Shown in pieces: positions 17,517 to 48,865 of a stretch of DNA of 64,000 nucleotides. This stretch comes from Gammaproteobacteria bacterium. Its GTDB lineage: Bacteria > Pseudomonadota > Gammaproteobacteria > Natronospirales > REEB76. The notes below the pieces were generated by a model. It ran no database searches and was not told the origin of the DNA. It was given only the letters and a program-made list of their open reading frames with translations. A program made the translations under genes and the position numbers. The stretch spans positions 65 through 64,064 of the forward strand of contig DATBAJ010000071.1 in NCBI GenBank assembly GCA_036271575.1. Reading direction: 5' to 3'. The stretch's first letter is position 1; every line of letters begins with the position of its first letter.

Positions 17517-17523
17517 AGGGCGC

Positions 17524-20500
17524 CTAGGGCTTGGCGCAGTCTGCCGGTGCCACGCTGACCGGCAGCAGCTGCCCCGCATCCAGACGCCAGGGAGAGCGGC
17601 AGCGGATCAGCGCGGCGACGGCCTCGGGCGGCCGGTCTTCGGCATGCACGTCCAGCAAGCGTGTGCCCGCATAGTAGGCCTGGCTTGCGATCTGCCCAGC
17701 GCCGGGGGCGAACTCCATGTCTTCAGTGAGCGAGGAGTCACCGCTGATCTCCAGCAGCAATTGGCCTGAATCGGGGTCCCGGAGCTGTGCAACCCGGCTG
17801 CGCACCAGCAGGAATTGCCCATCCGGACTGTATTGGGCCCGGTCCAGGCTGAGGCGTTCGGCGTTGTACAGCCATGACAGGCTGCCGTCTCCCGCATCCC
17901 AGACCTTTAGGGTGCCGTTGCGATGGACCGTGACCAGGCGCCGGCCATCGGGATCGTAGCGGATGCTATCGACCTCGCCGCTGCCGCTGTCCCAACTGCG
18001 CAGCAGCTTGCTGTCGGCGATCTGCCACTCACGGATCACGCCGGCATTGTCTGCCGTGGTCACGATCTGTCCATCTGGACTCAGGGCCGCTCCGGCATTG
18101 TAGGAATACAGTATCTCCGGAGGAGCCAGGCTGCGGCGATGCATCTGGAGATCCCAGACCTCCGCGTAGTAACGGAACGGCTCTTTCGAGCGGTCCTCGC
18201 GGATGCCAAGGAAGTGGCTTCCGTCCGGCGTGAAGTGAGTGGCGTCGGCGCAACCCTCGGGCATGGCAAAACCGGCGAGTTGCCTGCCGTCATGCGCATC
18301 CCATATGTGGGCGGTCTTGTCATCACCGCAGCCGAAGACCCGCTTGCCGTCCGGAGTGAAGGCCGCCACGCTCATGGGGCGGCGCGACATGACCGACAAC
18401 ATCCGGCCATCCGCCGCATCCCACACACTCAGCGACGGATTCAAAGAGGCAGCTGCCAGGATTCGCGTCCCATCGGGGCTGAACACCGCGAAACTCGCGT
18501 AAGCCTTGTCCGGCTTGGATGGATCGCCTTGCGGCAAGGCCAAGTCGAAGAGACGCTTGCCATCGTGGGCCCGCCAGATCGTCACCCGTCCTTCGTCCGT
18601 GGTCGCCACGCGGGCCCCCATAGGGTCGTAGACCGGATGTGACCCGCTCACGTCGATGACCGCGCTGAGCACCGCCGCCATGTCCCACACTTGTGCCACA
18701 TTATCCTTGGTGACGGTCATCAGCCGGGTCGAGTCCCTGGTGAACAAGGCCACGCCGCCCGGCAACACGCCGCGCTGGGTATAGTCCTTACCGTCCCAGA
18801 TCCAGGTCACATCTTTGGCGGATGCGGCGATGAAGGCGCCGTCCTCGCTCATGATCAGGTTATCGATCTCGTCCGGCATCGCGGCGAAGCGCGCCAGGTT
18901 CTTGCCGGTGGCGGCATCCCAGACCCGCACGGTCTTGTCCTTGCTGCCGGTCAGCAGGCGTTTGCCGTCCGGCGAGAAGATCACGACCTTGACTGCATCG
19001 TCATGTCCACCTTCGTAGTCGTCGCGGTTCTTGGCGGCGATGGTATACAGCAGCCGGCCGTCGTGGGTATCCCAGACCCGTACGCTCTTGTCGTCGCTGG
19101 AACTGGCGAGCCGGCGGCTATCGGGGCTGAAAGCGAAATTTCCGACGTCGGCGCGATGACCGGTCAGTTGCGCCACCAGCCTGCCGTCACGGGAATCCCA
19201 CAGGGACAGGCTGTGGTCGGCATCGACGCCCACGATGCTGCGGCCATCAGGGCTGAAACCGGCGTGTTTGATGTGGCCGCCGCGCCCTTTCAGGGTCAGT
19301 TGCAATTTCCCGGAAGCAGGGTCCCATATCTGCACTTCACCCCCACGCTCGGACCGGGTGAGCAGGCGCTTGCTGTCCGCGTCGAACAGTGCGCCCACCA
19401 GGAAACTATCCTTGAAATTGAGACTCGTCACCGTGGCGCCTGTGTGGGCGTCCAAGACCCGTATCACGGTGTCCTGATCGAGGGTGTCCCGCTTGCTGCC
19501 CACCGCAACGTAGCGACCGTCGGGAGAGAAGCGCGACCACAGCTCCATGTGCCCGGGTTCGCCTATGGAGAGCAGATGACGGCCGCTGTCCACGTCCCAT
19601 ATATCGGCATCGCCAGCGCCGCCGGCTGCCGTCATGCGCTTGCCGTCCCGGGTCATGTCGGGATTGAACCACAGGCCGGCTTCGACGAAACGTCCGCGCA
19701 GGGAATCCACATACAACATACTGCGGGCCAGCAGCAGACGCAGGGCCGGCGTGCGGCCTCCTAAACGATAGGCCTCTCCCAGATAGGCTGCCGCCTGCAG
19801 CGGCTCCCCCTGCAGGTAAAGTTGGCGCCCTTGTTCCGTGTAGGCAGCTATCGCAGCTTGCTTCGCCTTGCGCTGCGCCTGCAGGTCCCAGGCGCCGGTC
19901 AACAACACCGCTGCGACCACCGCGGCCGCCGCCCACTGCAGCCGTCTCAGCAGGCGCCGGCGTTTCTCGCGCTGACGCAGTTCGTCGTAAGGCACCCCCA
20001 TGATCCCAGCGAGCAGCTTGAGACGGGCGCTCGCCTTGCCGTCCTGCTGCGGGCGGGCATCGGCCGCGATCGGTTCCACGCGCTCAGTCAGCAACCGACC
20101 CTCGCTGTCTACGCGGTGCCGCAAGGCCGGCGGGAAGCACTCCAACTCGCCGCTCTCAGGGCGGTCGCCGGCATTGGGTTCGCCGTCCACGATCAGCGCC
20201 AGGATGCGGTCGGCGCGTCCCTGGCGCTTGAAGGCGATGATCTCTTCGTTCACCCAGCGCGACACAGCCGCCCGCGGCGAGCAGACCACCACCAGGTAGC
20301 GGGAATGCTGCAGCGATTCGTTGATGTTGTCGGAGAGATCGGCGGAAGAGGGCAGCTCTTCGCGGTCGCGGAACACGGGGAACAGGCGTCGCGGCAGCGG
20401 CCCATCGCGTCCCTCCCGGCCCACCAGCCGGCGGGGGACGCGGTAGCTTTCCAAGGCCTTGTGCAGCCAGTCGGCCCAGGCCTTGTCGCGGTGGCTATAG

Positions 20501-20553
20501 GAGATGAAGGCCCAGTAGCGGCGGTGCTGTGGTTCCACCTGGGACACCCTCAT
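17524..20553 (-). CDS. TIR domain / single-TM / WD40-repeat protein
   Basis: 1009 aa. The N-terminus YWAFISYSHRDKAWADWLHKALE..FPVFRDREELP..YLVVVCSPRAAVSRWVNEEI is TIR_2-like, including the SxWxxxE(L/I) motif. A basic stretch RQREKRRRLLRRLQ precedes one hydrophobic helix, WAAAAVVAAVLLTGAW (about nt 19885-19944). About 14-15 WD-like repeats then follow, ending ..(I/V)W(D)xxxG with FSPDG(K/R) cores (about nt 17659-19668). Confidence 0.85.
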   Translation of the reverse strand: MRVSQVEPQHRRYWAFISYSHRDKAWADWLHKALESYRVPRRLVGREGRDGPLPRRLFPVFRDREELPSSADLSDNINESLQHSRYLVVVCSPRAAVSRWVNEEIIAFKRQGRADRILALIVDGEPNAGDRPESGELECFPPALRHRVDSEGRLLTERVEPIAADARPQQDGKASARLKLLAGIMGVPYDELRQREKRRRLLRRLQWAAAAVVAAVLLTGAWDLQAQRKAKQAAIAAYTEQGRQLYLQGEPLQAAAYLGEAYRLGGRTPALRLLLARSMLYVDSLRGRFVEAGLWFNPDMTRDGKRMTAAGGAGDADIWDVDSGRHLLSIGEPGHMELWSRFSPDGRYVAVGSKRDTLDQDTVIRVLDAHTGATVTSLNFKDSFLVGALFDADSKRLLTRSERGGEVQIWDPASGKLQLTLKGRGGHIKHAGFSPDGRSIVGVDADHSLSLWDSRDGRLVAQLTGHRADVGNFAFSPDSRRLASSSDDKSVRVWDTHDGRLLYTIAAKNRDDYEGGHDDAVKVVIFSPDGKRLLTGSKDKTVRVWDAATGKNLARFAAMPDEIDNLIMSEDGAFIAASAKDVTWIWDGKDYTQRGVLPGGVALFTRDSTRLMTVTKDNVAQVWDMAAVLSAVIDVSGSHPVYDPMGARVATTDEGRVTIWRAHDGKRLFDLALPQGDPSKPDKAYASFAVFSPDGTRILAAASLNPSLSVWDAADGRMLSVMSRRPMSVAAFTPDGKRVFGCGDDKTAHIWDAHDGRQLAGFAMPEGCADATHFTPDGSHFLGIREDRSKEPFRYYAEVWDLQMHRRSLAPPEILYSYNAGAALSPDGQIVTTADNAGVIREWQIADSKLLRSWDSGSGEVDSIRYDPDGRRLVTVHRNGTLKVWDAGDGSLSWLYNAERLSLDRAQYSPDGQFLLVRSRVAQLRDPDSGQLLLEISGDSSLTEDMEFAPGAGQIASQAYYAGTRLLDVHAEDRPPEAVAALIRCRSPWRLDAGQLLPVSVAPADCAKP

Positions 20554-22481
20554 TCTCCCTCGTGGGCGCGGCGCAGCCTATACAGTACGTTCTCGCCATA
20601 CTGTTTGGCGAGGGTCATGGACCCCAGATAGTCGCAGGCGAACTCGCGGGCGCCGGCTGCCGCCAGCAGGGCGGCCAGCTGCTCACTTATATATACGGCA
20701 CCCGCGGCCGTGACCGGCTCGATGCGCGCGGCGCGGTTCACGTGAGCGCCGAAGAAGTTGCGGCGGCCGATGATCGGGTCGACCGCCGGGAATACCGGGC
20801 CTGCGTGCATGCCGATGCGGATGCTGGTGTCCTCCGGCAAGCCGTGGCGGCGCCACTGGGTGGCGCGCACCGCATCACGCAGCCGCAGGCCGAAGTCCGC
20901 TGCCGGTGCCGGCTCATCGAACACCATGAACAGGCCGTCGCCCCAGGTGTTGAGGAAGGCGGGCATGGCGCCGCTGCCGGCGATGACCCGCGCGATCACT
21001 CCCAGGAAGTGCACCAGGAACGCCGGCGTGTCCGCCTCCTGCAGCCGGCTGAAACCCACCATGTCCGCGAACAGCATGGTCTTGATCTCGCGGTGTGCCG
21101 CCTCCGGCGAGGTGAGCGGCGCAGAGGCGCGGCGCGCGGGCGCTCCGGCGTCGCGTAGCGCGCGCAGGTCTATGTTGCGCGACGGCCGTCCAAGCTGTTC
21201 CCAGGCGTTGACCGCACTCTGCGTGCCTCCACGGCGCTCCGGGTCCAGCGGGTCCAGCACCGCGAGCTGCAGGACCCCGGTCTCGAGCTGTCCGGCGCGG
21301 AGCAAGGCCGCGCCCTGGGTGAGGGCGGCGGTGTATTCGAAGAGGATGTCATCGCCCAGGTACTGCTCCTGTACCGCGCGGCTGACGCTGGTGGCGTGGC
21401 GCAGGGCCGCGTGGAAACGCCGCGTCCATTGCGGACCGGCGAAGCCGACGCTGGTCTCCAGGAAGTCCTGTTGGGCGAACGGCAGGATCACGTGAACTTC
21501 CGCGCCGCGTTTCAGCATCTGCTCGATGAATATGATGTCGGCGCCGCAGGCGGCCGAGCAGTAGCCGAAGCCGGCGTCGCATTCCTCCAGTGCCGCAGCC
21601 ACCGCGCGCGTGACCTTGGGTTCGAGCGCCGCCGGGAATCGGGGTTCGGTCCGTTCGGGCCGATCCAGCATGTGGCCCGTGAATACCACCACCCGCGGCA
21701 GCGATACCAGCGCGTCGAGTCCGGACGGCACCGCGCTATCCAGCAGACGCAACTGCCTGCGCATGCTGGCGATGTCGCCGAAACGGCCTCGCATGGCACG
21801 CATGGCGCGCTGGTACCAGTGTTCCGCTTGCGGACCATCGCCCAGCAGCGCGCTGGCCTCACCCAGGGTGGCGTACATCCACGGATCGATCTTGCGGGTG
21901 TTGCGCAGTTTCTTCAGGCACAGCCGCCGGGTCTCTTCGGCCAGCGCGCGGCTTTCGACGGCGCGGCCGAGCAGCGAATACAGCGTCGCGGCATTGATGG
22001 CGGGGAAATATCCGCCGCTTGCGGCATAGGCCTCGGCGTAAGCGGCGGCGGCGCGCTCGCCGGCTTCGCTCCGCGCCGGTCCGGCGGGGAGACGGGCCCA
22101 CAGGTCCTTTGCGATGCGTCCTTCGAGGCTCTTGGCTTCTGCGTAGAGCGGGTCGGCGTGCCGGAGTCTGCCCGTGAGCGCCGCGAGCAGGCCCACGGCT
22201 TCGGTGTAGGAACCGCCGCGCGCCGCGGCCAGCGCCGCGAGATAACCGAGTTCGCGCTCGCGGGGGTGATGACTGATACCGTGGCGCAGGATCTCGTAGG
22301 CGAGGGTCGGATACCCATACTCCAGCGCGCGGCGGCCGGCATCGCAGAATGCGGCGGCATCCCAGTCCGCGCCGCCGGCGCGCTGTTCCCAGGCGGCGAT
22401 CAGGCCCCGCAGGTCCACCGGCGTTCGACGGCGCGGACGCGCCTGCTTCGCTGTGCGGCTGGCTTGGGTCTTGCGCGGCAT
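20550..22481 (-). CDS. Multidomain class III nucleotidyl cyclase (helical-repeat N-domain + Rossmann-like middle domain + cyclase)
   Basis: 643 aa. The C-terminal ~175 aa hold cyclase motifs: MLFADMVGFS (metal Asp), TWGDGLFMVF (metal Asp), IRIGMHAGPV and GAHVNRAARIE (Asn/Arg). The N-terminal ~230 aa are alpha-helical-repeat (..GGYFPAINAATLYSLLG..), TPR/DUF4071-like. The middle domain is ..VVVFTGHMLDRP..YCSAACGADIIFIEQMLKRGAEVHVILPF... The stop overlaps the TIR gene start (ATGA). Confidence 0.85.
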   Translation of the reverse strand: MPRKTQASRTAKQARPRRRTPVDLRGLIAAWEQRAGGADWDAAAFCDAGRRALEYGYPTLAYEILRHGISHHPRERELGYLAALAAARGGSYTEAVGLLAALTGRLRHADPLYAEAKSLEGRIAKDLWARLPAGPARSEAGERAAAAYAEAYAASGGYFPAINAATLYSLLGRAVESRALAEETRRLCLKKLRNTRKIDPWMYATLGEASALLGDGPQAEHWYQRAMRAMRGRFGDIASMRRQLRLLDSAVPSGLDALVSLPRVVVFTGHMLDRPERTEPRFPAALEPKVTRAVAAALEECDAGFGYCSAACGADIIFIEQMLKRGAEVHVILPFAQQDFLETSVGFAGPQWTRRFHAALRHATSVSRAVQEQYLGDDILFEYTAALTQGAALLRAGQLETGVLQLAVLDPLDPERRGGTQSAVNAWEQLGRPSRNIDLRALRDAGAPARRASAPLTSPEAAHREIKTMLFADMVGFSRLQEADTPAFLVHFLGVIARVIAGSGAMPAFLNTWGDGLFMVFDEPAPAADFGLRLRDAVRATQWRRHGLPEDTSIRIGMHAGPVFPAVDPIIGRRNFFGAHVNRAARIEPVTAAGAVYISEQLAALLAAAGAREFACDYLGSMTLAKQYGENVLYRLRRAHEGE

Positions 22482-22617
22482 GGATCGAGCATAGACGAAA
22501 AGACCCGCCGGCCATAGACCGCGGCGCTTGCAGTCCGGGCCCCGTCCAGCGAAGCTATGCCCGGCCCGCTAGGGACCCGCGGACCCGCATTACAACCATA
22601 AACGCGCGCAGCCAAGC

Positions 22618-25600
22618 ATGCTCCATCGCCGAATGCATCATCGGTCTCTGCGCCTGCGGGCCTTGGCGGTCGTCACCGGCTTGTGCCTGGCGTGCTGTGC
22701 GTCGTCGTCATCGGCGGCACCGGCGACTAGTCTGCCGCCGGGGTCGAGCCTGCGTTTCCGCCACATCCGCATCGAAGACGGCCTGGCCCAGAGTTCAGTG
22801 CAGGCCATCGTCCAGGACGCCCAGGGCTATCTGTGGTTCGGCACCCAGGACGGATTGCAGCGCTACGATGGCTACGGCTTCCTGACTTTCCGCCACGATC
22901 CCTCCGATCCCGGCTCTCTCTCGGACAACACGGTGAATGCCTTGGCCTTGGGGCAGGACGGCGCGCTCTGGGTCGGTACGTCGACGGGCGGCTTGGACAG
23001 GTTGGATACCAGCACCCGCCGTTTCAGCCATCTCGCCAATGATCCCAAGGACCCGGCCAGTCTCGCCAGCGACCAGGTGTCGGTGCTGTATGTGGATCGC
23101 CAGCAGCATCTGTGGATAGGTACCGGTGCCGGACTCGACCTGTACGATGGGCACGTCTTCCATCATTACCCTATCTCCGATTCCTCCGCCGGCCCGCGCA
23201 GCGTCAACAGCCTCCACGAGGATGCGAACGGGCGGCTTTGGGTGGGAAGCGGTCACGGCATCTTCTATATGGACGGCGATCATCTGGCGCCGTTCGTGGC
23301 CGGCGGCAGCATGACCTCCGATCAGCATGGCTTGTTCACGGAATCACCCATCCACGCCATCACCGGGGTAGGCGGCATGCTGTGGATCGCCAGCGGTAGA
23401 GGGATCGCGGCGGTGGATGCCCATGGAGAGCTGCAGCATTTCTATGCCCACTCCAAGGCGCCGGATTCCCTCGCCAACGATCATGCCCTGGCGCTGCTGC
23501 GGGACTCCTCCGGCGATGTCTGGGTCGGCACCTACGGCGGGGGAGTGAGCCGCTTCGACGATAGCGCCGCCGGGTTCTCATCCTACCGGCACGATGCGAC
23601 GGACCCCGGGAGCCTCGGCAGCGACCAGATCAACGTGCTCTATGAAGACCGTTCCGGCCTGATCTGGATCGGCACCGACGATGACGGCGTCGACATCTAC
23701 AATCCGCGCACCCGTGCTTTCGGCTACTACCGCCACAAGCAGGATGACGTGAACAGCCTGGCCAGTAACATGGTGTGGTCCATCTTCAAGGATCAGGCGG
23801 GCGATATCTGGGCCGGCACCGATCACGGGCTCACGCGCATGGATGCCGCCCGGCGCCACTACCGGCAGTACCACATGGGCGAGAGACCCGCCACGCGCGT
23901 GGACGACGATCAAGTCAACGTCGTCTACGGCGACCGGCAGGGTGGGCTGTGGACGGGGACTGACTACGGCATCTATAGATATGAGCCGGCGCGTGATGCA
24001 TTCCAGCGCTATGACCTGGTGCCGGGCCGCGATGACAGCAGCGGCAACGTGGTGAGTTCCCTCTATCAGGACAGCCACGGTCGCCTGTGGGCCGGCACCG
24101 GCGCGGGCCTGGTACAGGTGGACACGGAGAAACGCGGCGCGCGCCGCTTCCGCCATGACCCCAACCGCGCCGATAGCCTGCCGGCAGATGCCGTCATCGC
24201 CCTCTGCGAGACCACGGACGGCCGCCTGTGGGTGGGGACTTCCGGCGGGCTCGCCTCCTTCGACGGCACGGCCGACAGCTTCCAGGTGTTCCACAACGAT
24301 CCCAGGGATTCCACCAGTGTCAGCTACGACAACATCCAGTCCTGTCGCGCGGATGCCGAAGGCGGGCTTTGGGTCGGCACTGCCGACGGCTTGGATCACC
24401 TTGCGGCGGGACAGCGGTCGTTCAAGCGTTACTTCAGCCGCGACGGTCTTCCCAACGACACGATCTACTCGATCCTGGCGGAGCCGGCGGGCGCGATATG
24501 GATCAGCACCGACGACGGCCTGTCGCGTTTCGAGCCCGCGACCGGCGCGTTCCACAACTACCTGAAGAGCGACGGGCTGCAGAGCGACGAGTTCAACGGT
24601 GGCGCGGGTTTCGCCGCCCCGGACGGCGAACTGCTGTTCGGCGGCGTGGACGGACTGAACGCCTTCTATCCTTCCCACATCGCCCGCGATGCGTTGCCGC
24701 CGAAGGTCGCCGTCACCCGTTTCCTGCGTCAGAACTCGGAGGTGCCGCTGGCGACTACGGCCGGACAGACGGACGCAGTGCAAGTGCAATACCAGCAGAA
24801 CATGCTGAGCTTCGAGTTCACGGCCTTCGACTACGCGGAACCCGAGCTCAACCGTTTCAGCTACCGGCTGGACGGATTCGACGACGAGTGGCATGACTTG
24901 CGCGGACGGCACGCGGCGACCTATACCAACCTGGACCCGGGCAAGTACCTGTTGCGGGTGCGCGGCGCCAACAGCGACGGCGTGTGGAGCGCCGATGATG
25001 CGACCCTGGATATAGAAGTGCTGCCGCCGGCCTGGCGCAGCGGCTGGGCGTATCTGTTGTATGCCGCAGCCGGTTTCGTGACGCTGATGGTGGGGCTTGC
25101 TCTCTACAAGCGCATCATCCAGCGTGAGCAGCGTCTGGTGGAGGAACAGCAGCGCCGGCGTTGGGCGGAATCCTTGCACGACCTCATCCATCGCGTGACT
25201 GCCCAACGCGACGATCGCAGCATCGCCGAGCAGCTCATCGATGCGCTCACCAACTTCATCGACTACGAGCAGGCCTTGTTCTACGTGGAGCGGGAGGGCA
25301 GCATGACCTTGCTGGCTTCGCGCGGCATCGGTCCCACCGAACAGGCCTACCTGGAGCATTGGCCGCAGCAGCAACCGGGCATCGTGGCGCGACTCAAGCA
25401 GGCGCAGAAGACGCTGCTGCTCACGCCGGAGGATGCGGCGACCCTGGCGGGCGGCGCCAAACCGGGGCGGCACCATTACCTGGCGGTGCCGCTGCACTCC
25501 GGCAGCGGCGCGTTCCGGCTGCTGTTGGTGGGCCGGCCGAACCGGGTCCTCAAGGAGCAGCAGATGGCGGTGGCCACCGCCATGGCCAAGCAGGTGAACA

Positions 25601-26145
25601 TGGCGCTGGACAACATACAGTTGATCCAGGACTTGGAGGACCTCGCCACCACCGATGGACTGACCCGGCTCTATAACCGGCGTCATTTCATGGAGCGTGC
25701 CGAGAGCGAGTTCGAGCGCAGCCGCCGTTACCGGCGCGACTTGTCGGTGTTCCTCATCGATGCGGACCACTTCAAGCTCATCAACGACACCCATGGCCAC
25801 GAGGCGGGCGACCGGGCGCTGCGGCTTCTGGCCTCTGCCTGCCGCGAGGGCTTGCGCCAGCTGGACGTGATCGGCCGCTACGGAGGCGAGGAGCTGGTGG
25901 CGCTGCTGCCGGAAGCTTCCGCCGCAGTGGCCTACGAGACCGCCGAACGACTGCGGCAGAGCATCGAACGGATACAGATACCCTTGCCGCAGGGCGAAGC
26001 CCGGCTGACGGTGAGCATAGGCGTAGCCACCGCCGGGGCCGACACCGAGACCGTGGCGGCGCTCATCAACCAGGCGGACCGGGCCCTGTATGAGGCCAAG
26101 CGCAATGGCCGGAACCGGGTGGTGGCGGCCGGCGCTCCGAAATGA
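22618..26145 (+). CDS. Periplasmic two-component-regulator-propeller/Y_Y_Y sensor - TM - GAF - GGDEF diguanylate cyclase
   Basis: 1175 aa. Signal/lipoprotein-like N-terminus. Many ..LW(V/I)GT..GL..(Y/F).. propeller repeats, followed by a Y_Y_Y-like Ig segment (FSYRLDGFDDEWHD..). TM helix WAYLLYAAAGFVTLMVGLALY. GAF-like region. GGDEF domain with RYGGEEL active site and an RQLD (RxxD) I-site. Confidence 0.85.
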   Translation: MLHRRMHHRSLRLRALAVVTGLCLACCASSSSAAPATSLPPGSSLRFRHIRIEDGLAQSSVQAIVQDAQGYLWFGTQDGLQRYDGYGFLTFRHDPSDPGSLSDNTVNALALGQDGALWVGTSTGGLDRLDTSTRRFSHLANDPKDPASLASDQVSVLYVDRQQHLWIGTGAGLDLYDGHVFHHYPISDSSAGPRSVNSLHEDANGRLWVGSGHGIFYMDGDHLAPFVAGGSMTSDQHGLFTESPIHAITGVGGMLWIASGRGIAAVDAHGELQHFYAHSKAPDSLANDHALALLRDSSGDVWVGTYGGGVSRFDDSAAGFSSYRHDATDPGSLGSDQINVLYEDRSGLIWIGTDDDGVDIYNPRTRAFGYYRHKQDDVNSLASNMVWSIFKDQAGDIWAGTDHGLTRMDAARRHYRQYHMGERPATRVDDDQVNVVYGDRQGGLWTGTDYGIYRYEPARDAFQRYDLVPGRDDSSGNVVSSLYQDSHGRLWAGTGAGLVQVDTEKRGARRFRHDPNRADSLPADAVIALCETTDGRLWVGTSGGLASFDGTADSFQVFHNDPRDSTSVSYDNIQSCRADAEGGLWVGTADGLDHLAAGQRSFKRYFSRDGLPNDTIYSILAEPAGAIWISTDDGLSRFEPATGAFHNYLKSDGLQSDEFNGGAGFAAPDGELLFGGVDGLNAFYPSHIARDALPPKVAVTRFLRQNSEVPLATTAGQTDAVQVQYQQNMLSFEFTAFDYAEPELNRFSYRLDGFDDEWHDLRGRHAATYTNLDPGKYLLRVRGANSDGVWSADDATLDIEVLPPAWRSGWAYLLYAAAGFVTLMVGLALYKRIIQREQRLVEEQQRRRWAESLHDLIHRVTAQRDDRSIAEQLIDALTNFIDYEQALFYVEREGSMTLLASRGIGPTEQAYLEHWPQQQPGIVARLKQAQKTLLLTPEDAATLAGGAKPGRHHYLAVPLHSGSGAFRLLLVGRPNRVLKEQQMAVATAMAKQVNMALDNIQLIQDLEDLATTDGLTRLYNRRHFMERAESEFERSRRYRRDLSVFLIDADHFKLINDTHGHEAGDRALRLLASACREGLRQLDVIGRYGGEELVALLPEASAAVAYETAERLRQSIERIQIPLPQGEARLTVSIGVATAGADTETVAALINQADRALYEAKRNGRNRVVAAGAPK

Positions 26146-47827: not shown

Positions 47828-48865
47828 TCAGGCCGTAGCGCCGCCCTTGAGTACATATACGTCGAAGCCACGCTCGCTCAAGATGTAGGCACCGGCAGAG
47901 CTGCGGCGGCCGGTGTCGCAGTACACCACGTATTTCTTCTTCGAATCCAGGGTATCCAGCTTCAGGCGGATGAAGTAGAGCGGGATGTTGATGGCACCTT
48001 CCTGATGCTGGTTCTCGAATTCGCTGGGCAGGCGCACGTCCAGCCACTGGCCGCCGCCGGCTACGATCTTCTGCGCCTCGTCCATGGGGATCCACTTCTG
48101 GCTGGGCTCGTTCAAGAGCTTCTTGAAGTCGTCCTTGGCGAGCCGCACCAGCGAACCGTCGGTGAGCATGGCGATGGTGGCGTTGCGCTTGGCGTCGGAG
48201 ATCAGGGCCTCTTCGCCGAAGCCGTCGCCCGTCACCAACTCGGCGAGCTTGATGCCGGCCTTGTTGGTGGGGGTCTCGCGCGTCACCACGCATTTGCCGG
48301 AGGTGACGATGTAGAAATAGTCGCCCTCGTCACCCTGCTTGATGATGACATCGCCGGCCTTGCGCGCGATGTTCTCCATGCGCATCAGCACCGCCTGGAT
48401 GTTGGCGGGGGGGATGCGATGGAAAGCCTTGGTCTGGAGGATGGTGGTCATCCAGTCGTCGGCCGGAGCTTCTTCCTGGGCCTGCAGTTCACCGACTTCG
48501 AAGGCGCCGGTCTGGTCCCAGGTGAGCATGATATCCAGGAGGTCGCTGTCCACGCCGAACCACTCGACGTTGGTCTTGGCGCGGGCCGAGAGATGGCGCG
48601 GGATCTGCGGGGCGAGGGGATGGCGCGCTTCTTCGCTGCCGCCGGTGATGACACGCACAACCTTGTCGGCAGTGCGCAATTCGATCTCGCCCTTGACCAG
48701 GTACACGGTGCGCTTGTCGGCGTCGCCCTGACGAAATACATAGCGGCCGGCTTCGGTGTCCTGCACCTGGCTTTTGCCCGCGAGGTCGGCCTGGTTCTCG
48801 GGTTTGAGACCGCTCAGCGGCGAAAATTGCTTGATGAGTTCGCGGTCGAGGGGTCGGGGTGCCAT
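47828..48865 (-). CDS. Tandem cyclic-nucleotide-binding domains fused to a rhodanese domain
   Basis: 345 aa. CNB-1 (..YVFRQGDADKRTVYLVKGEIEL..) has a degenerate phosphate-binding cassette. CNB-2 (..IIKQGDEGDYFYIVTSGKC..GFGEEALISDAKRNATI..) keeps the FGE..R.A cassette. The C-terminal rhodanese has the active-site loop YCDTGRRS. Confidence 0.8.
   Translation of the reverse strand: MAPRPLDRELIKQFSPLSGLKPENQADLAGKSQVQDTEAGRYVFRQGDADKRTVYLVKGEIELRTADKVVRVITGGSEEARHPLAPQIPRHLSARAKTNVEWFGVDSDLLDIMLTWDQTGAFEVGELQAQEEAPADDWMTTILQTKAFHRIPPANIQAVLMRMENIARKAGDVIIKQGDEGDYFYIVTSGKCVVTRETPTNKAGIKLAELVTGDGFGEEALISDAKRNATIAMLTDGSLVRLAKDDFKKLLNEPSQKWIPMDEAQKIVAGGGQWLDVRLPSEFENQHQEGAINIPLYFIRLKLDTLDSKKKYVVYCDTGRRSSAGAYILSERGFDVYVLKGGATA

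What the first reader, a model, noticed from the sequence alone, without database searches (positions are those of the whole stretch)
20562..21086. Cyclase domain keeps catalytic residues but has Asn/Asn at the two purine-specifying positions
I aligned by hand to the canonical class III layout: F-x-D-x-x-G-F-(T/S), K-x-x-G-D, D-x-x-G-x-x-V-N-x-x-x-R.

Conserved residues:
- Metal Asp D473 in FADMVGFS.
- Metal Asp D515 in TWGDG.
- Transition-state N582 and R586 in VNRAAR.

Divergent residues:
- The position four residues before the second Asp is Lys in adenylyl cyclases and Glu in guanylyl cyclases. Here it is Asn (N511, codon 20949-20951).
- The position seven residues before the catalytic Asn is Asp (or Thr/Ser) in adenylyl cyclases and Cys in guanylyl cyclases. 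Here it is Asn (N575, codon 20757-20759).

An apparently active cyclase with neither the AC nor the GC specificity pair raises the possibility of a non-cAMP/cGMP product, for example a pyrimidine cNMP as in Pycsar cyclases.
Basis: partly seen in the sequence, partly recalled or inferred. Interest (0 to 1): 0.6.

Follow-up and report, generated by a model that had tools for sequence, protein, structure and literature searches.

The report
Asn-type cyclase on a TIR-linked sensor
The cyclase domain really does carry asparagines where adenylyl and guanylyl cyclases carry their base-reading residues. It marks a large uncharacterised clade that is always fused to two predicted nucleotide-sensor domains and usually lies beside a TIR gene, so its product is open and worth assaying, but nothing links it to the pyrimidine (Pycsar) cyclases.

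Summary
Observation confirmed. Gene 20550-22481 (-) encodes a 643-aa protein: TPR-S repeats, a SLOG-fold domain and a class III cyclase. Sequence and profile alignments to solved cyclases put N511 on the Lys (AC) / Glu (GC) position and N575 on the Asp / Cys position.

- **Conserved:** D473, D515, R555, R586 and K626 are invariant, so the domain looks catalytic.
- **Clade hallmark:** about 1,580 clusters at 50% identity share N-T-W-G-D. Asn is at the Lys position in 93%, never Lys, and Trp513 in 99%.
- **Variable:** the second position is N 56%, T 18%, S, G or D. The 'catalytic' Asn582 is only 33% Asn (Ser 50%).
- **Same genome:** the four other cyclases carry Lys plus Thr or Asp.
- **Pycsar:** no support. 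No PycC match appears in PDB, Pycsar uses Arg at this position, and no cNMP-binding effector is nearby.
- **Context:** the gene overlaps a TIR-TM-WD40 gene by 4 nt. TIR genes flank 50-56 of 85 homologous loci. The pair is a 5-kb insertion missing from same-genus relatives.

Best reading: a Thoeris-like relay in which a TIR-made NAD derivative switches on the cyclase. The product is unknown; a purine cNMP is somewhat more likely. The scan has met this family before on other genomes.

The parts
20550..22481 (-). Gene for the 643-aa TPR-S / SLOG / class III cyclase protein
   Evidence: ORF. Pfam gives TPR-S at 46 bits and Guanylate_cyc at 47 bits. The AF2 model has pLDDT 91.7 and pTM 0.91. At least 394 full-length homologues share the architecture.
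21738..22412 (-). N-terminal helical repeat array (aa 24-248), including the Pfam TPR-S match (aa 73-167, nt 21981-22265)
   Evidence: PF20308 TPR-S E 8.7e-12, above the cut-off; TPR_12 and MAP3K_TRAF_bd match weakly. The region is all-helical in the model.
21156..21719 (-). Middle alpha/beta domain (aa 255-442) of the SLOG superfamily, with motifs F-x-G-H-M-x-D and S-A-A-C-G-A-D-x-x-F-x-E
   Evidence: The separate AF2 model has pLDDT 90.7. Foldseek top PDB hits are YpsA 2nx2 (E 1.9e-7), DprA, ShosA, LOG, Moco carrier protein and the TRPM2 N-terminal domain. Invariant residues are F267, G269, H270, R281, G313, D315, E320 and R355.
20568..21089 (-). Class III nucleotidyl cyclase catalytic domain (aa 465-638)
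   Evidence: PF00211. Foldseek returns only AC/GC catalytic domains; the best TM-scores normalised to the target are Rv1900c 0.80-0.83 and Ma1120 0.80-0.81.
20943..20951 (-). N511-T512-W513. Asn sits at the Lys (AC) / Glu (GC) base-reading position; Trp sits two residues before metal Asp D515.
   Evidence: Alignments. N511 is 138/149 and W513 147/149 family-wide.
20757..20759 (-). N575, at the Asp/Thr (AC) / Cys (GC) base-reading position
   Evidence: Alignments. It is 112/119 among close relatives and 84/149 in the broad sample.
20724..20738 (-). N582-R583-A-A-R586. This is the transition-state Asn (variable in the family) and Arg (invariant), plus the family-specific R583.
17524..20553 (-). 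Downstream gene overlapping by 4 nt (ATGA). It encodes a 1009-aa protein with TIR (aa 16-125, catalytic-type Glu E104), one hydrophobic helix (aa ~205-223) and WD40 propellers.
   Evidence: ORF. Pfam gives TIR_2 at 57 bits and WD40 at 146 bits. Motif SRWVNEE and the hydrophobic stretch were read. The Glu is conserved in 61/64 neighbouring TIRs. It is the only TIR found in this genome.

Best explanation
The domain is a catalytically competent class III nucleotidyl cyclase. It belongs to a distinct, widespread clade whose hallmark is N-T-W-G-D in place of the K/E-T-I-G-D of adenylyl and guanylyl cyclases.

It is the output domain of a three-part protein. The other two parts are TPR-S repeats and a SLOG-fold domain, both of kinds known or predicted to bind NAD-derived nucleotides. 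The protein is co-transcribed, and probably translationally coupled, with a membrane-anchored TIR-WD40 protein.

Inferred mechanism:
1. The TIR protein is activated through its repeat sensor and makes an ADPR-type signal from NAD+.
2. The TPR-S/SLOG module binds that signal.
3. The cyclase homodimer is switched on, converting the first messenger into a 3',5'-cyclic nucleotide.

The Asn/Trp remodelling of the base pocket is under strict selection, so specificity is defined but cannot be read from sequence. I rate a purine cNMP (cAMP, perhaps with relaxed ATP/GTP discrimination) as the most likely product.

Shown: residue equivalences, conservation, folds, gene linkage and cassette mobility. Inferred: catalytic activity, direction of signalling and product.
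For: Residue equivalences.

Catalytic set invariant in 149 cluster representatives: D473, D515, R555, R586, K626, E588.

Clade size: 1,582 clusters at E<=1e-30, against 38,357 cyclase-like hits at E<=1e-3. At least 563 species genomes across many phyla carry it.

This cyclase type is always seen with TPR-S, with optional RyR or GAF domains at the N-terminus.

The middle domain is SLOG fold. SLOG binds 3'cADPR in the type I Thoeris effector. A TPR domain is the presumed cADPR sensor of the type VIII effector ThsI; that paper says it had been predicted to take part in TIR signalling (10.64898/2025.12.03.692087).

TIR linkage:
- The two genes overlap by 4 nt, with a GGGAG upstream of the TIR start.
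- A TIR gene lies within 8 kb in 56/85 homologous loci, 50 of them at E<=1e-10.
- Pfam confirmed TIR_2 in 5 of 9 sampled neighbours, combined with TPR or Sel1 repeats or DUF4062; three separately looked-up homologues have TIR-WD40 or TIR-TPR neighbours.
- This genome holds only one TIR gene.
- The TIR catalytic-type Glu is kept in 61/64.

The pair behaves as a unit.
- It was not found in 40 relatives.
- Four same-genus genomes have M48 and GGDEF adjacent where the window has the 5-kb pair.
- A 70%-identical homologue has the pair on the other side of M48.

Purine lean: the second specificity position varies N/T/S/D, as in ACs. Rv0386, with a non-canonical selection mode, is an AC with 20% GC activity (PMC4452763). 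Pyrimidine cyclases use long Arg side chains at the N511 position (PMC11224242).
Against: - No enzymology exists for any member.
- The transition-state Asn is not conserved, and is Val or Ile in 43/119 close relatives. Activity could therefore be low or use a different geometry.
- About a third of loci have no TIR within 8 kb and sit among housekeeping genes.
- No cNMP receptor is encoded in the cassette, so the role of the product is unknown.
- Asn is a known uracil reader in PycTIR and some CD-NTases (PMC11224242), and Trp513 could narrow the pocket. A pyrimidine product is therefore not excluded.
- The direction of signalling (TIR to cyclase) rests on analogy only.
- ThsA did not appear among the top 50 structural hits of the SLOG domain.
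Confidence: 0.45

Rival explanations
1. The Asn/Trp pocket selects a non-canonical substrate, so the enzyme makes something other than cAMP or cGMP. Candidates are cUMP, cCMP, or a cyclic product of another nucleotide.
For: - The Lys/Glu position is Asn in 93% of the clade and never Lys.
- Several further family-specific near-invariants line the canonical site: W513, H580 and R583.
- Asn reads uracil in PycTIR and in some CD-NTases (PMC11224242).
- Immune cyclase clades have diversified in nucleotide use (10.64898/2026.08.12.744502).
- The four other cyclases in the same genome are canonical K+T/D, so this one is not redundant with them.
Against: - There is no similarity to PycC beyond the shared fold.
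- Characterised pyrimidine cyclases use Arg, not a short Asn, at this position (PMC11224242).
- The second position varies N/T/S/D as in ACs.
- Non-canonical class III enzymes characterised so far still make cAMP or cGMP (PMC4452763, PMC3770947).
Confidence: 0.2
2. It is a dedicated guanylyl cyclase. The product is cGMP, as in Pucsar or XC_0250, and is made with non-canonical residues.
For: - The best sequence and profile match in PDB is a guanylyl cyclase (3et6).
- Bacterial GCs with non-canonical residues exist: XC_0250 (PMC3770947) and PucC.
- Two clade representatives carry an E/K pair reminiscent of PucC E118/K195.
Against: - No Glu sits at the first position in 93% of members.
- The PDB ranking reflects overall similarity, not specificity.
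- Structurally, Rv1900c and Ma1120, both ACs, are as close or closer by target-normalised TM-score.
Confidence: 0.12
3. The order is reversed. The cyclase protein is the sensor and signal generator, and its cNMP activates the TIR-WD40 protein as an NADase effector, following Pycsar/Pucsar logic.
For: In Pycsar and Pucsar a cyclase signals to a TIR effector. The cyclase gene comes first in the operon.
Against: - The TIR protein has no cNMP-binding domain; it has TIR, a TM helix and WD40.
- Partner TIR proteins carry variable repeat arrays typical of sensors.
- The cyclase protein itself carries two ligand-sensor-type domains.
Confidence: 0.1
4. The cyclase domain is a weak or non-catalytic module. 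It may act as a nucleotide-binding regulator or as an NTP-consuming effector rather than a messenger synthase.
For: - The ribose-positioning Asn is not conserved and is Val or Ile in many close relatives.
- No receptor gene lies in the cassette.
- This is the lowest-scoring PF00211 match of the five cyclases in the genome.
Against: - Both metal Asp residues, both Arg residues and the phosphate Lys are invariant in 149 divergent representatives.
- XC_0250 is active even with Leu and Ala at the Asn and Arg positions (PMC3770947).
Confidence: 0.1

Closest known systems
Mycobacterial class III adenylyl cyclases with non-canonical substrate selection (Rv0386; Rv1900c)
   Same: They share the class III catalytic fold and homodimer-type residue set, and their base-reading positions are not Lys/Asp. 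Rv1900c is among the closest structures (TM 0.80-0.83). Rv0386 is an AC with about 20% GC side activity (PMC4452763). From memory, not verified here: Rv1900c has Asn at the Lys position, and Rv0386 has Gln and Asn at the two positions.
   Different: They have different domain partners (alpha/beta hydrolase; ATPase-LuxR). They lack the invariant Trp two residues before the second metal Asp. They have no TIR linkage. They are single proteins, not a clade of about 1,600 clusters defined by the substitution.
Pycsar pyrimidine cyclases (PycC) and Pucsar cGMP cyclases (PucC)
   Same: They have the class III-type cyclase fold and use cNMPs in TIR-linked systems. Their specificity is set by residues around the second metal Asp (PMC11224242; 10.64898/2026.08.12.744502).
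   Different: - There is no significant sequence match.
- PycC uses Arg at the equivalent position, and PucC uses Glu/Lys.
- Their partners are CNBD-TIR or 3TM effectors that receive the cNMP.
- Here the TIR protein has no CNBD, and the cyclase carries its own sensor domains.
Thoeris systems: type I (ThsB TIR + ThsA SIR2-SLOG) and type VIII (TIR + ThsI CMP-hydrolase-TPR)
   Same: They pair a TIR gene with a protein that joins a SLOG and/or TPR ligand-sensor to an enzymatic output. The TIR keeps its catalytic-type Glu. The pair is a patchy, mobile two-gene cassette.
   Different: - The output here is a nucleotide cyclase, not an NADase or nucleotide hydrolase.
- The TIR protein is membrane-anchored with large WD40 arrays.
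- Neighbouring genes are housekeeping, not a defence island.
- Anti-phage activity is untested.
- No PADLOC or NCBIfam Thoeris model matches the cyclase protein.
Xanthomonas XC_0250 guanylyl cyclase (cyclase + TPR)
   Same: It is a bacterial class III cyclase fused to TPRs, with non-canonical active-site residues, and is active nevertheless (PMC3770947).
   Different: Its cyclase is N-terminal, and it has no SLOG domain. Its transition-state Asn and Arg are replaced by Leu and Ala, whereas Arg is invariant here. Its partner is a CNBD-GGDEF protein, not a TIR.

Membership tests
Class III nucleotidyl cyclase (PF00211) | Pfam model above the gathering score, and the cyclase catalytic fold | tested here: met
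   47 bits against a cut-off of 21.9. Foldseek hits are exclusively AC/GC catalytic domains at probability 1.00.
Class III nucleotidyl cyclase (PF00211) | Two metal-binding Asp residues, the transition-state Arg and the phosphate-binding Arg/Lys | tested here: met
   D473, D515, R555, R586 and K626 are present and are 148-149/149 in the family.
Class III nucleotidyl cyclase (PF00211) | Transition-state / ribose-positioning Asn | tested here: inconclusive
   N582 is present in this protein. Family-wide it is only 33% Asn, with Ser 50% and Thr 13%; it is Val or Ile in 43/119 close relatives.
Adenylyl cyclase (specificity pair Lys + Asp/Thr/Ser) | Lys four residues before the second metal Asp | tested here: not met
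   The residue is Asn. No Lys occurs in 149 representatives.
Guanylyl cyclase (specificity pair Glu + Cys/Gly/Ser) | Glu four residues before the second metal Asp, and Cys-type at the second position | tested here: not met
   The pair is Asn/Asn here. Glu occurs in only 3/149 representatives.
Pycsar PycC | Match to the PycC model or to PycC structures | tested here: not met
   PADLOC PycC gives E 0.0016 and 15.6 bits over aa 544-612 only. No PycC chain is matched by the family profile at E<=0.01.
Pycsar PycC | Adjacent effector with a cNMP-binding domain (PycTIR) or PycTM | tested here: not met
   The neighbour is TIR-TM-WD40 without a CNBD. No CNBD family recurs among the neighbours of 85 loci.
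Thoeris-like TIR signalling system | TIR gene with a catalytic-type Glu adjacent to an effector gene | tested here: met
   The genes overlap by 4 nt. A TIR lies within 8 kb in 50-56 of 85 loci. The Glu is kept in 61/64.
Thoeris-like TIR signalling system | Effector carries a ligand-sensor domain for ADPR-type signals (SLOG, Macro, TPR) | tested here: met
   SLOG fold and Pfam TPR-S. Ligand binding itself was not tested.
Thoeris-like TIR signalling system | TIR-made signal activates the effector; protection against phage | not testable with these tools
   This needs biochemistry and phage assays. Context is mixed: the pair is a mobile, patchy cassette, but its neighbours are housekeeping genes.
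SLOG superfamily | Rossmann-like SLOG fold with Gly-rich ligand loops | tested here: met
   Top structural hits are YpsA, DprA, ShosA, LOG, MCP and TRPM2. Conserved loops are G-H-M-x-D and C-G-A-D-x-x-F-x-E.

The most novel reading that the evidence does not exclude
A periplasm-facing TIR receptor makes an NAD-derived messenger. The TPR-S/SLOG module reads it and switches on a cyclase whose Asn/Trp pocket produces a cyclic nucleotide other than cAMP or cGMP. This would be a two-messenger transmembrane relay with a new second messenger assignment, present in hundreds of bacterial species.
Probability: 0.12. Interest if true: 0.85.

Novelty: new variant of a known kind. Interest (0 to 1): 0.5.

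Why it matters
Substrate choice in class III cyclases is usually predicted from two residues. Here a clade of about 1,600 protein clusters, spread over many phyla, has fixed Asn plus Trp at the first of these positions, so its product cannot be assigned by rule.

The clade is always wired to TPR-S/SLOG sensor modules and is usually next to TIR genes. Knowing its product would therefore define the output of what looks like an undescribed TIR-to-cyclic-nucleotide relay. It would extend Thoeris-type signalling to a messenger-converting effector.

The test is cheap: one purified protein, four NTPs and LC-MS.

Tried and rejected
- **Pycsar membership:** rejected. The PADLOC hit is a weak partial match, no PycC appears in the profile-vs-PDB search, and the specificity residues and partner genes differ.
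- **Reading the AF2 pocket directly:** not possible. Model coordinates are not exposed to the Python box, so no docking or pocket-volume estimate could be made.
- **Papers on Rv1900c and Rv0386 specificity residues, and Burroughs & Aravind 2020 on TPR-S:** not held or not searchable in the held text. Those statements are marked as memory or cited second-hand.
- **A cNMP receptor in the cassette:** none found. The recurrent neighbour families among 85 loci are TIR/repeat proteins, antisense ORF artefacts and lineage-specific synteny. The tandem CNBD gene in the window is 27 kb away.
- **Insertion scars:** no target-site duplication or repeats were evident at the cassette borders.
- **Promoter and terminator scan of the operon:** nothing above the shuffled background.
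- **Single-linkage clustering of neighbours:** it merged TIR, WD40 and TPR proteins into one component. The TIR count therefore rests on the TIR-domain jackhmmer search and on Pfam spot checks. The jackhmmer search may include a few drifted weak hits.
Full report
**What is there.** The finding lies in a minus-strand ORF, 20550-22481, of 643 aa. Pfam finds TPR-S (PF20308, aa 73-167, 46 bits against a cut-off of 27.6) and the class III cyclase domain (PF00211, aa 468-625, 47 bits against 21.9). An AlphaFold2 model built on 119 homologues is confident (pLDDT 91.7, pTM 0.91). It shows a helical repeat array (aa 24-248), an alpha/beta domain (aa 255-442) and the cyclase (aa 465-638).

The middle domain was modelled alone (pLDDT 90.7). 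Its best PDB matches are YpsA (E 1.9e-7), DprA, ShosA, LOG, Moco-carrier protein and the TRPM2 N-terminal domain. This places it in the SLOG superfamily. It carries invariant G-H-M-x-D and C-G-A-D-x-x-F-x-E loops.

**Check of the observation.** The hand alignment holds.
- In phmmer alignments to solved cyclases, N511 falls on Glu523 of the Chlamydomonas guanylyl cyclase 3et6 and on the Lys of Rv1264.
- N575 falls on Cys592 of 3et6 and on the Asp of Rv1264.
- Glu523 and Cys592 are the named base-recognition residues of 3et6 (PMC2576301).
- A 44-sequence family profile searched against PDB gives the same equivalences with 3et6, GC-A and 3mr7.

**Conservation.** Among 119 full-length homologues of 45-76% identity, several residues are invariant: D473, N511, W513, G514, D515, R555, H559, R586, E588 and K626. 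N575 is 112/119.

A less biased sample came from a profile search of 1.84 billion cluster representatives.
- It gave 1,582 clusters at E<=1e-30, against 38,357 cyclase-like hits at E<=1e-3.
- In the best 149, the Lys position is Asn in 138, with H4, E3 and no Lys. W513 is 147/149.
- The second position is N84, T27, S10, G10, D6.
- The metal, Arg and Lys residues are 148-149/149.

The hallmark of the clade is therefore N-T-W-G-D, not strictly the Asn/Asn pair. The pair itself is found in 82/149.

It is present here but is not a family constant. It is T41/N35/V24/I19 among close relatives and S74/N49/T20 in the broad sample.

In the same genome, four other class III cyclases carry Lys plus Thr or Asp. 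This one stands apart from ordinary adenylyl cyclases even within its own cell.

**Is it Pycsar-like?** No.
- The PADLOC PycC hit is a 15.6-bit partial match.
- No PycC chain is reached by the family profile.
- In characterised pyrimidine cyclases the base is read by Arg at the very position where this clade has Asn. In EaPycC these are R142 and Q144, before metal Asp D146. In BcPycC they are R97, with Y50 and D94 (PMC11224242).
- PucC, the cGMP enzyme, uses E118/K195.

A short Asn plus a bulky Trp matches neither solution.

**What can be said about the product.**
- The second position varies N/T/S/D as in Lys/Thr- and Lys/Asp-type adenylyl cyclases.
- Rv0386, described as using a novel mode of substrate selection, is still an AC with about 20% GC side activity (PMC4452763).
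- XC_0250 makes cGMP with Leu and Ala at the Asn and Arg positions (PMC3770947). Rule-based prediction is therefore unreliable in bacteria.
- Asn is also a known uracil reader (PMC11224242).

I conclude that the product is open, with a moderate lean to a purine cNMP.

**Context.** The cyclase gene overlaps the next gene by 4 nt (ATGA), with a GGGAG before the start. That gene (17524-20553) encodes a TIR domain (TIR_2, 57 bits), one hydrophobic helix and WD40 propellers.

In three homologues looked up individually, a TIR-WD40 or TIR-TPR gene lies one to three genes from the cyclase gene, in different arrangements. In 85 homologous loci a TIR-domain search found a TIR gene within 8 kb in 56, of which 50 were at E<=1e-10. 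Pfam confirmed TIR_2 in 5 of 9 sampled neighbours, fused to TPR or Sel1 repeats or DUF4062. The catalytic-type Glu (E104 here) is kept in 61/64.

The background rate is low: the neighbour is the only TIR gene found in this 2-Mb assembly. About a third of loci lack a nearby TIR and sit among housekeeping genes.

**Mobility.** The cyclase protein was not found in 40 relatives, comprising 14 of the same genus, 10 of the same family and 16 of the same order. Twenty-three of these genomes are high quality. Four same-genus genomes have otsA-MscS-M48-GGDEF contiguous. The window has the 5-kb pair between M48 and GGDEF. A 70%-identical homologue has the pair on the other side of M48. The two genes thus move as a unit.

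**Architecture of the clade.** Representatives with extra length add an N-terminal RyR or GAF domain. One 2,884-aa protein also combines TPR-S with this cyclase type. In every member checked here, the N-T-W-G-D cyclase comes with a TPR-S module.

**Mechanism proposed.** SLOG binds 3'cADPR in the type I Thoeris effector. A TPR domain previously predicted to act in TIR signalling is the presumed cADPR sensor of the type VIII effector ThsI (10.64898/2025.12.03.692087). By analogy, the TIR-TM-WD40 protein would make an NAD-derived signal that the TPR-S/SLOG module reads, activating the cyclase. This direction is inferred, not shown.

The reverse order, as in Pycsar and Pucsar, is disfavoured because the TIR protein has no cNMP-binding domain.

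**Standing.** The scan's notebook shows that this family (TIR plus TPR-S-SLOG-cyclase, sometimes with RyR) has been met several times on other genomes, with the same Thoeris-like reading. The same gene pair and middle domain were also noted on this window. I reached the domain assignments and the Thoeris comparison from my own calls before that look-up.

This report adds three things:
- the residue-level picture of the cyclase clade;
- the contrast with the genome's other cyclases;
- the empty-site evidence.

**Verdict.** The clade is a new variant of a known kind. The product is unassigned and easily testable, and the Pycsar analogy is not supported.

Noticed in passing
window 17517-17523 and 22482-22617; L092-L095: The cyclase+TIR pair is a 5-kb insertion. 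Four same-genus genomes have M48 directly followed by the GGDEF gene, with a conserved intergenic 'AAGCTTTTTTGGGA...ACATAATC' that is replaced in the window. No target-site duplication was seen. In L001 the pair sits on the other side of M48.
   Followed up: yes
P0121 (2,884 aa): This giant protein carries TPR-S (aa 1175-1273) and the same N-T-W-G-D cyclase type (aa 2512-2696). The other roughly 2,000 residues have no Pfam match.
   Followed up: partly
P0157, P0125, P0134, P0257: Longer clade members add an N-terminal RyR domain or a GAF domain before TPR-S. GAF is a known cNMP binder, which hints at feedback in some members.
   Followed up: no
two cluster representatives: Two clade members have Glu/Lys at the two specificity positions. 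This is the same pair reported for the cGMP-making PucC (E118/K195).
   Followed up: no
own genome, contig C1:4710-5168 (+): Another class III cyclase in the same genome has Gln in place of the transition-state Asn (TVQLSAR), with a canonical Lys/Asp pair.
   Followed up: no
L014:9950-11572 (-): In one betaproteobacterial locus the family member is directly followed by a convergent HisKA-REC-cyclase gene. Two cyclases of different types are therefore adjacent.
   Followed up: no
window ~48110-48754 (-): A protein with two cNMP-binding domains lies 27 kb from the cyclase gene. The genome has five CNBD proteins in all.
   Followed up: no
window 22618-26145 (+): The divergent neighbour is a 1175-aa Reg_prop/Y_Y_Y-GGDEF protein. 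It is syntenic in relatives that lack the cassette, so its adjacency to the cyclase operon results from the insertion and is not a conserved partnership.
   Followed up: partly
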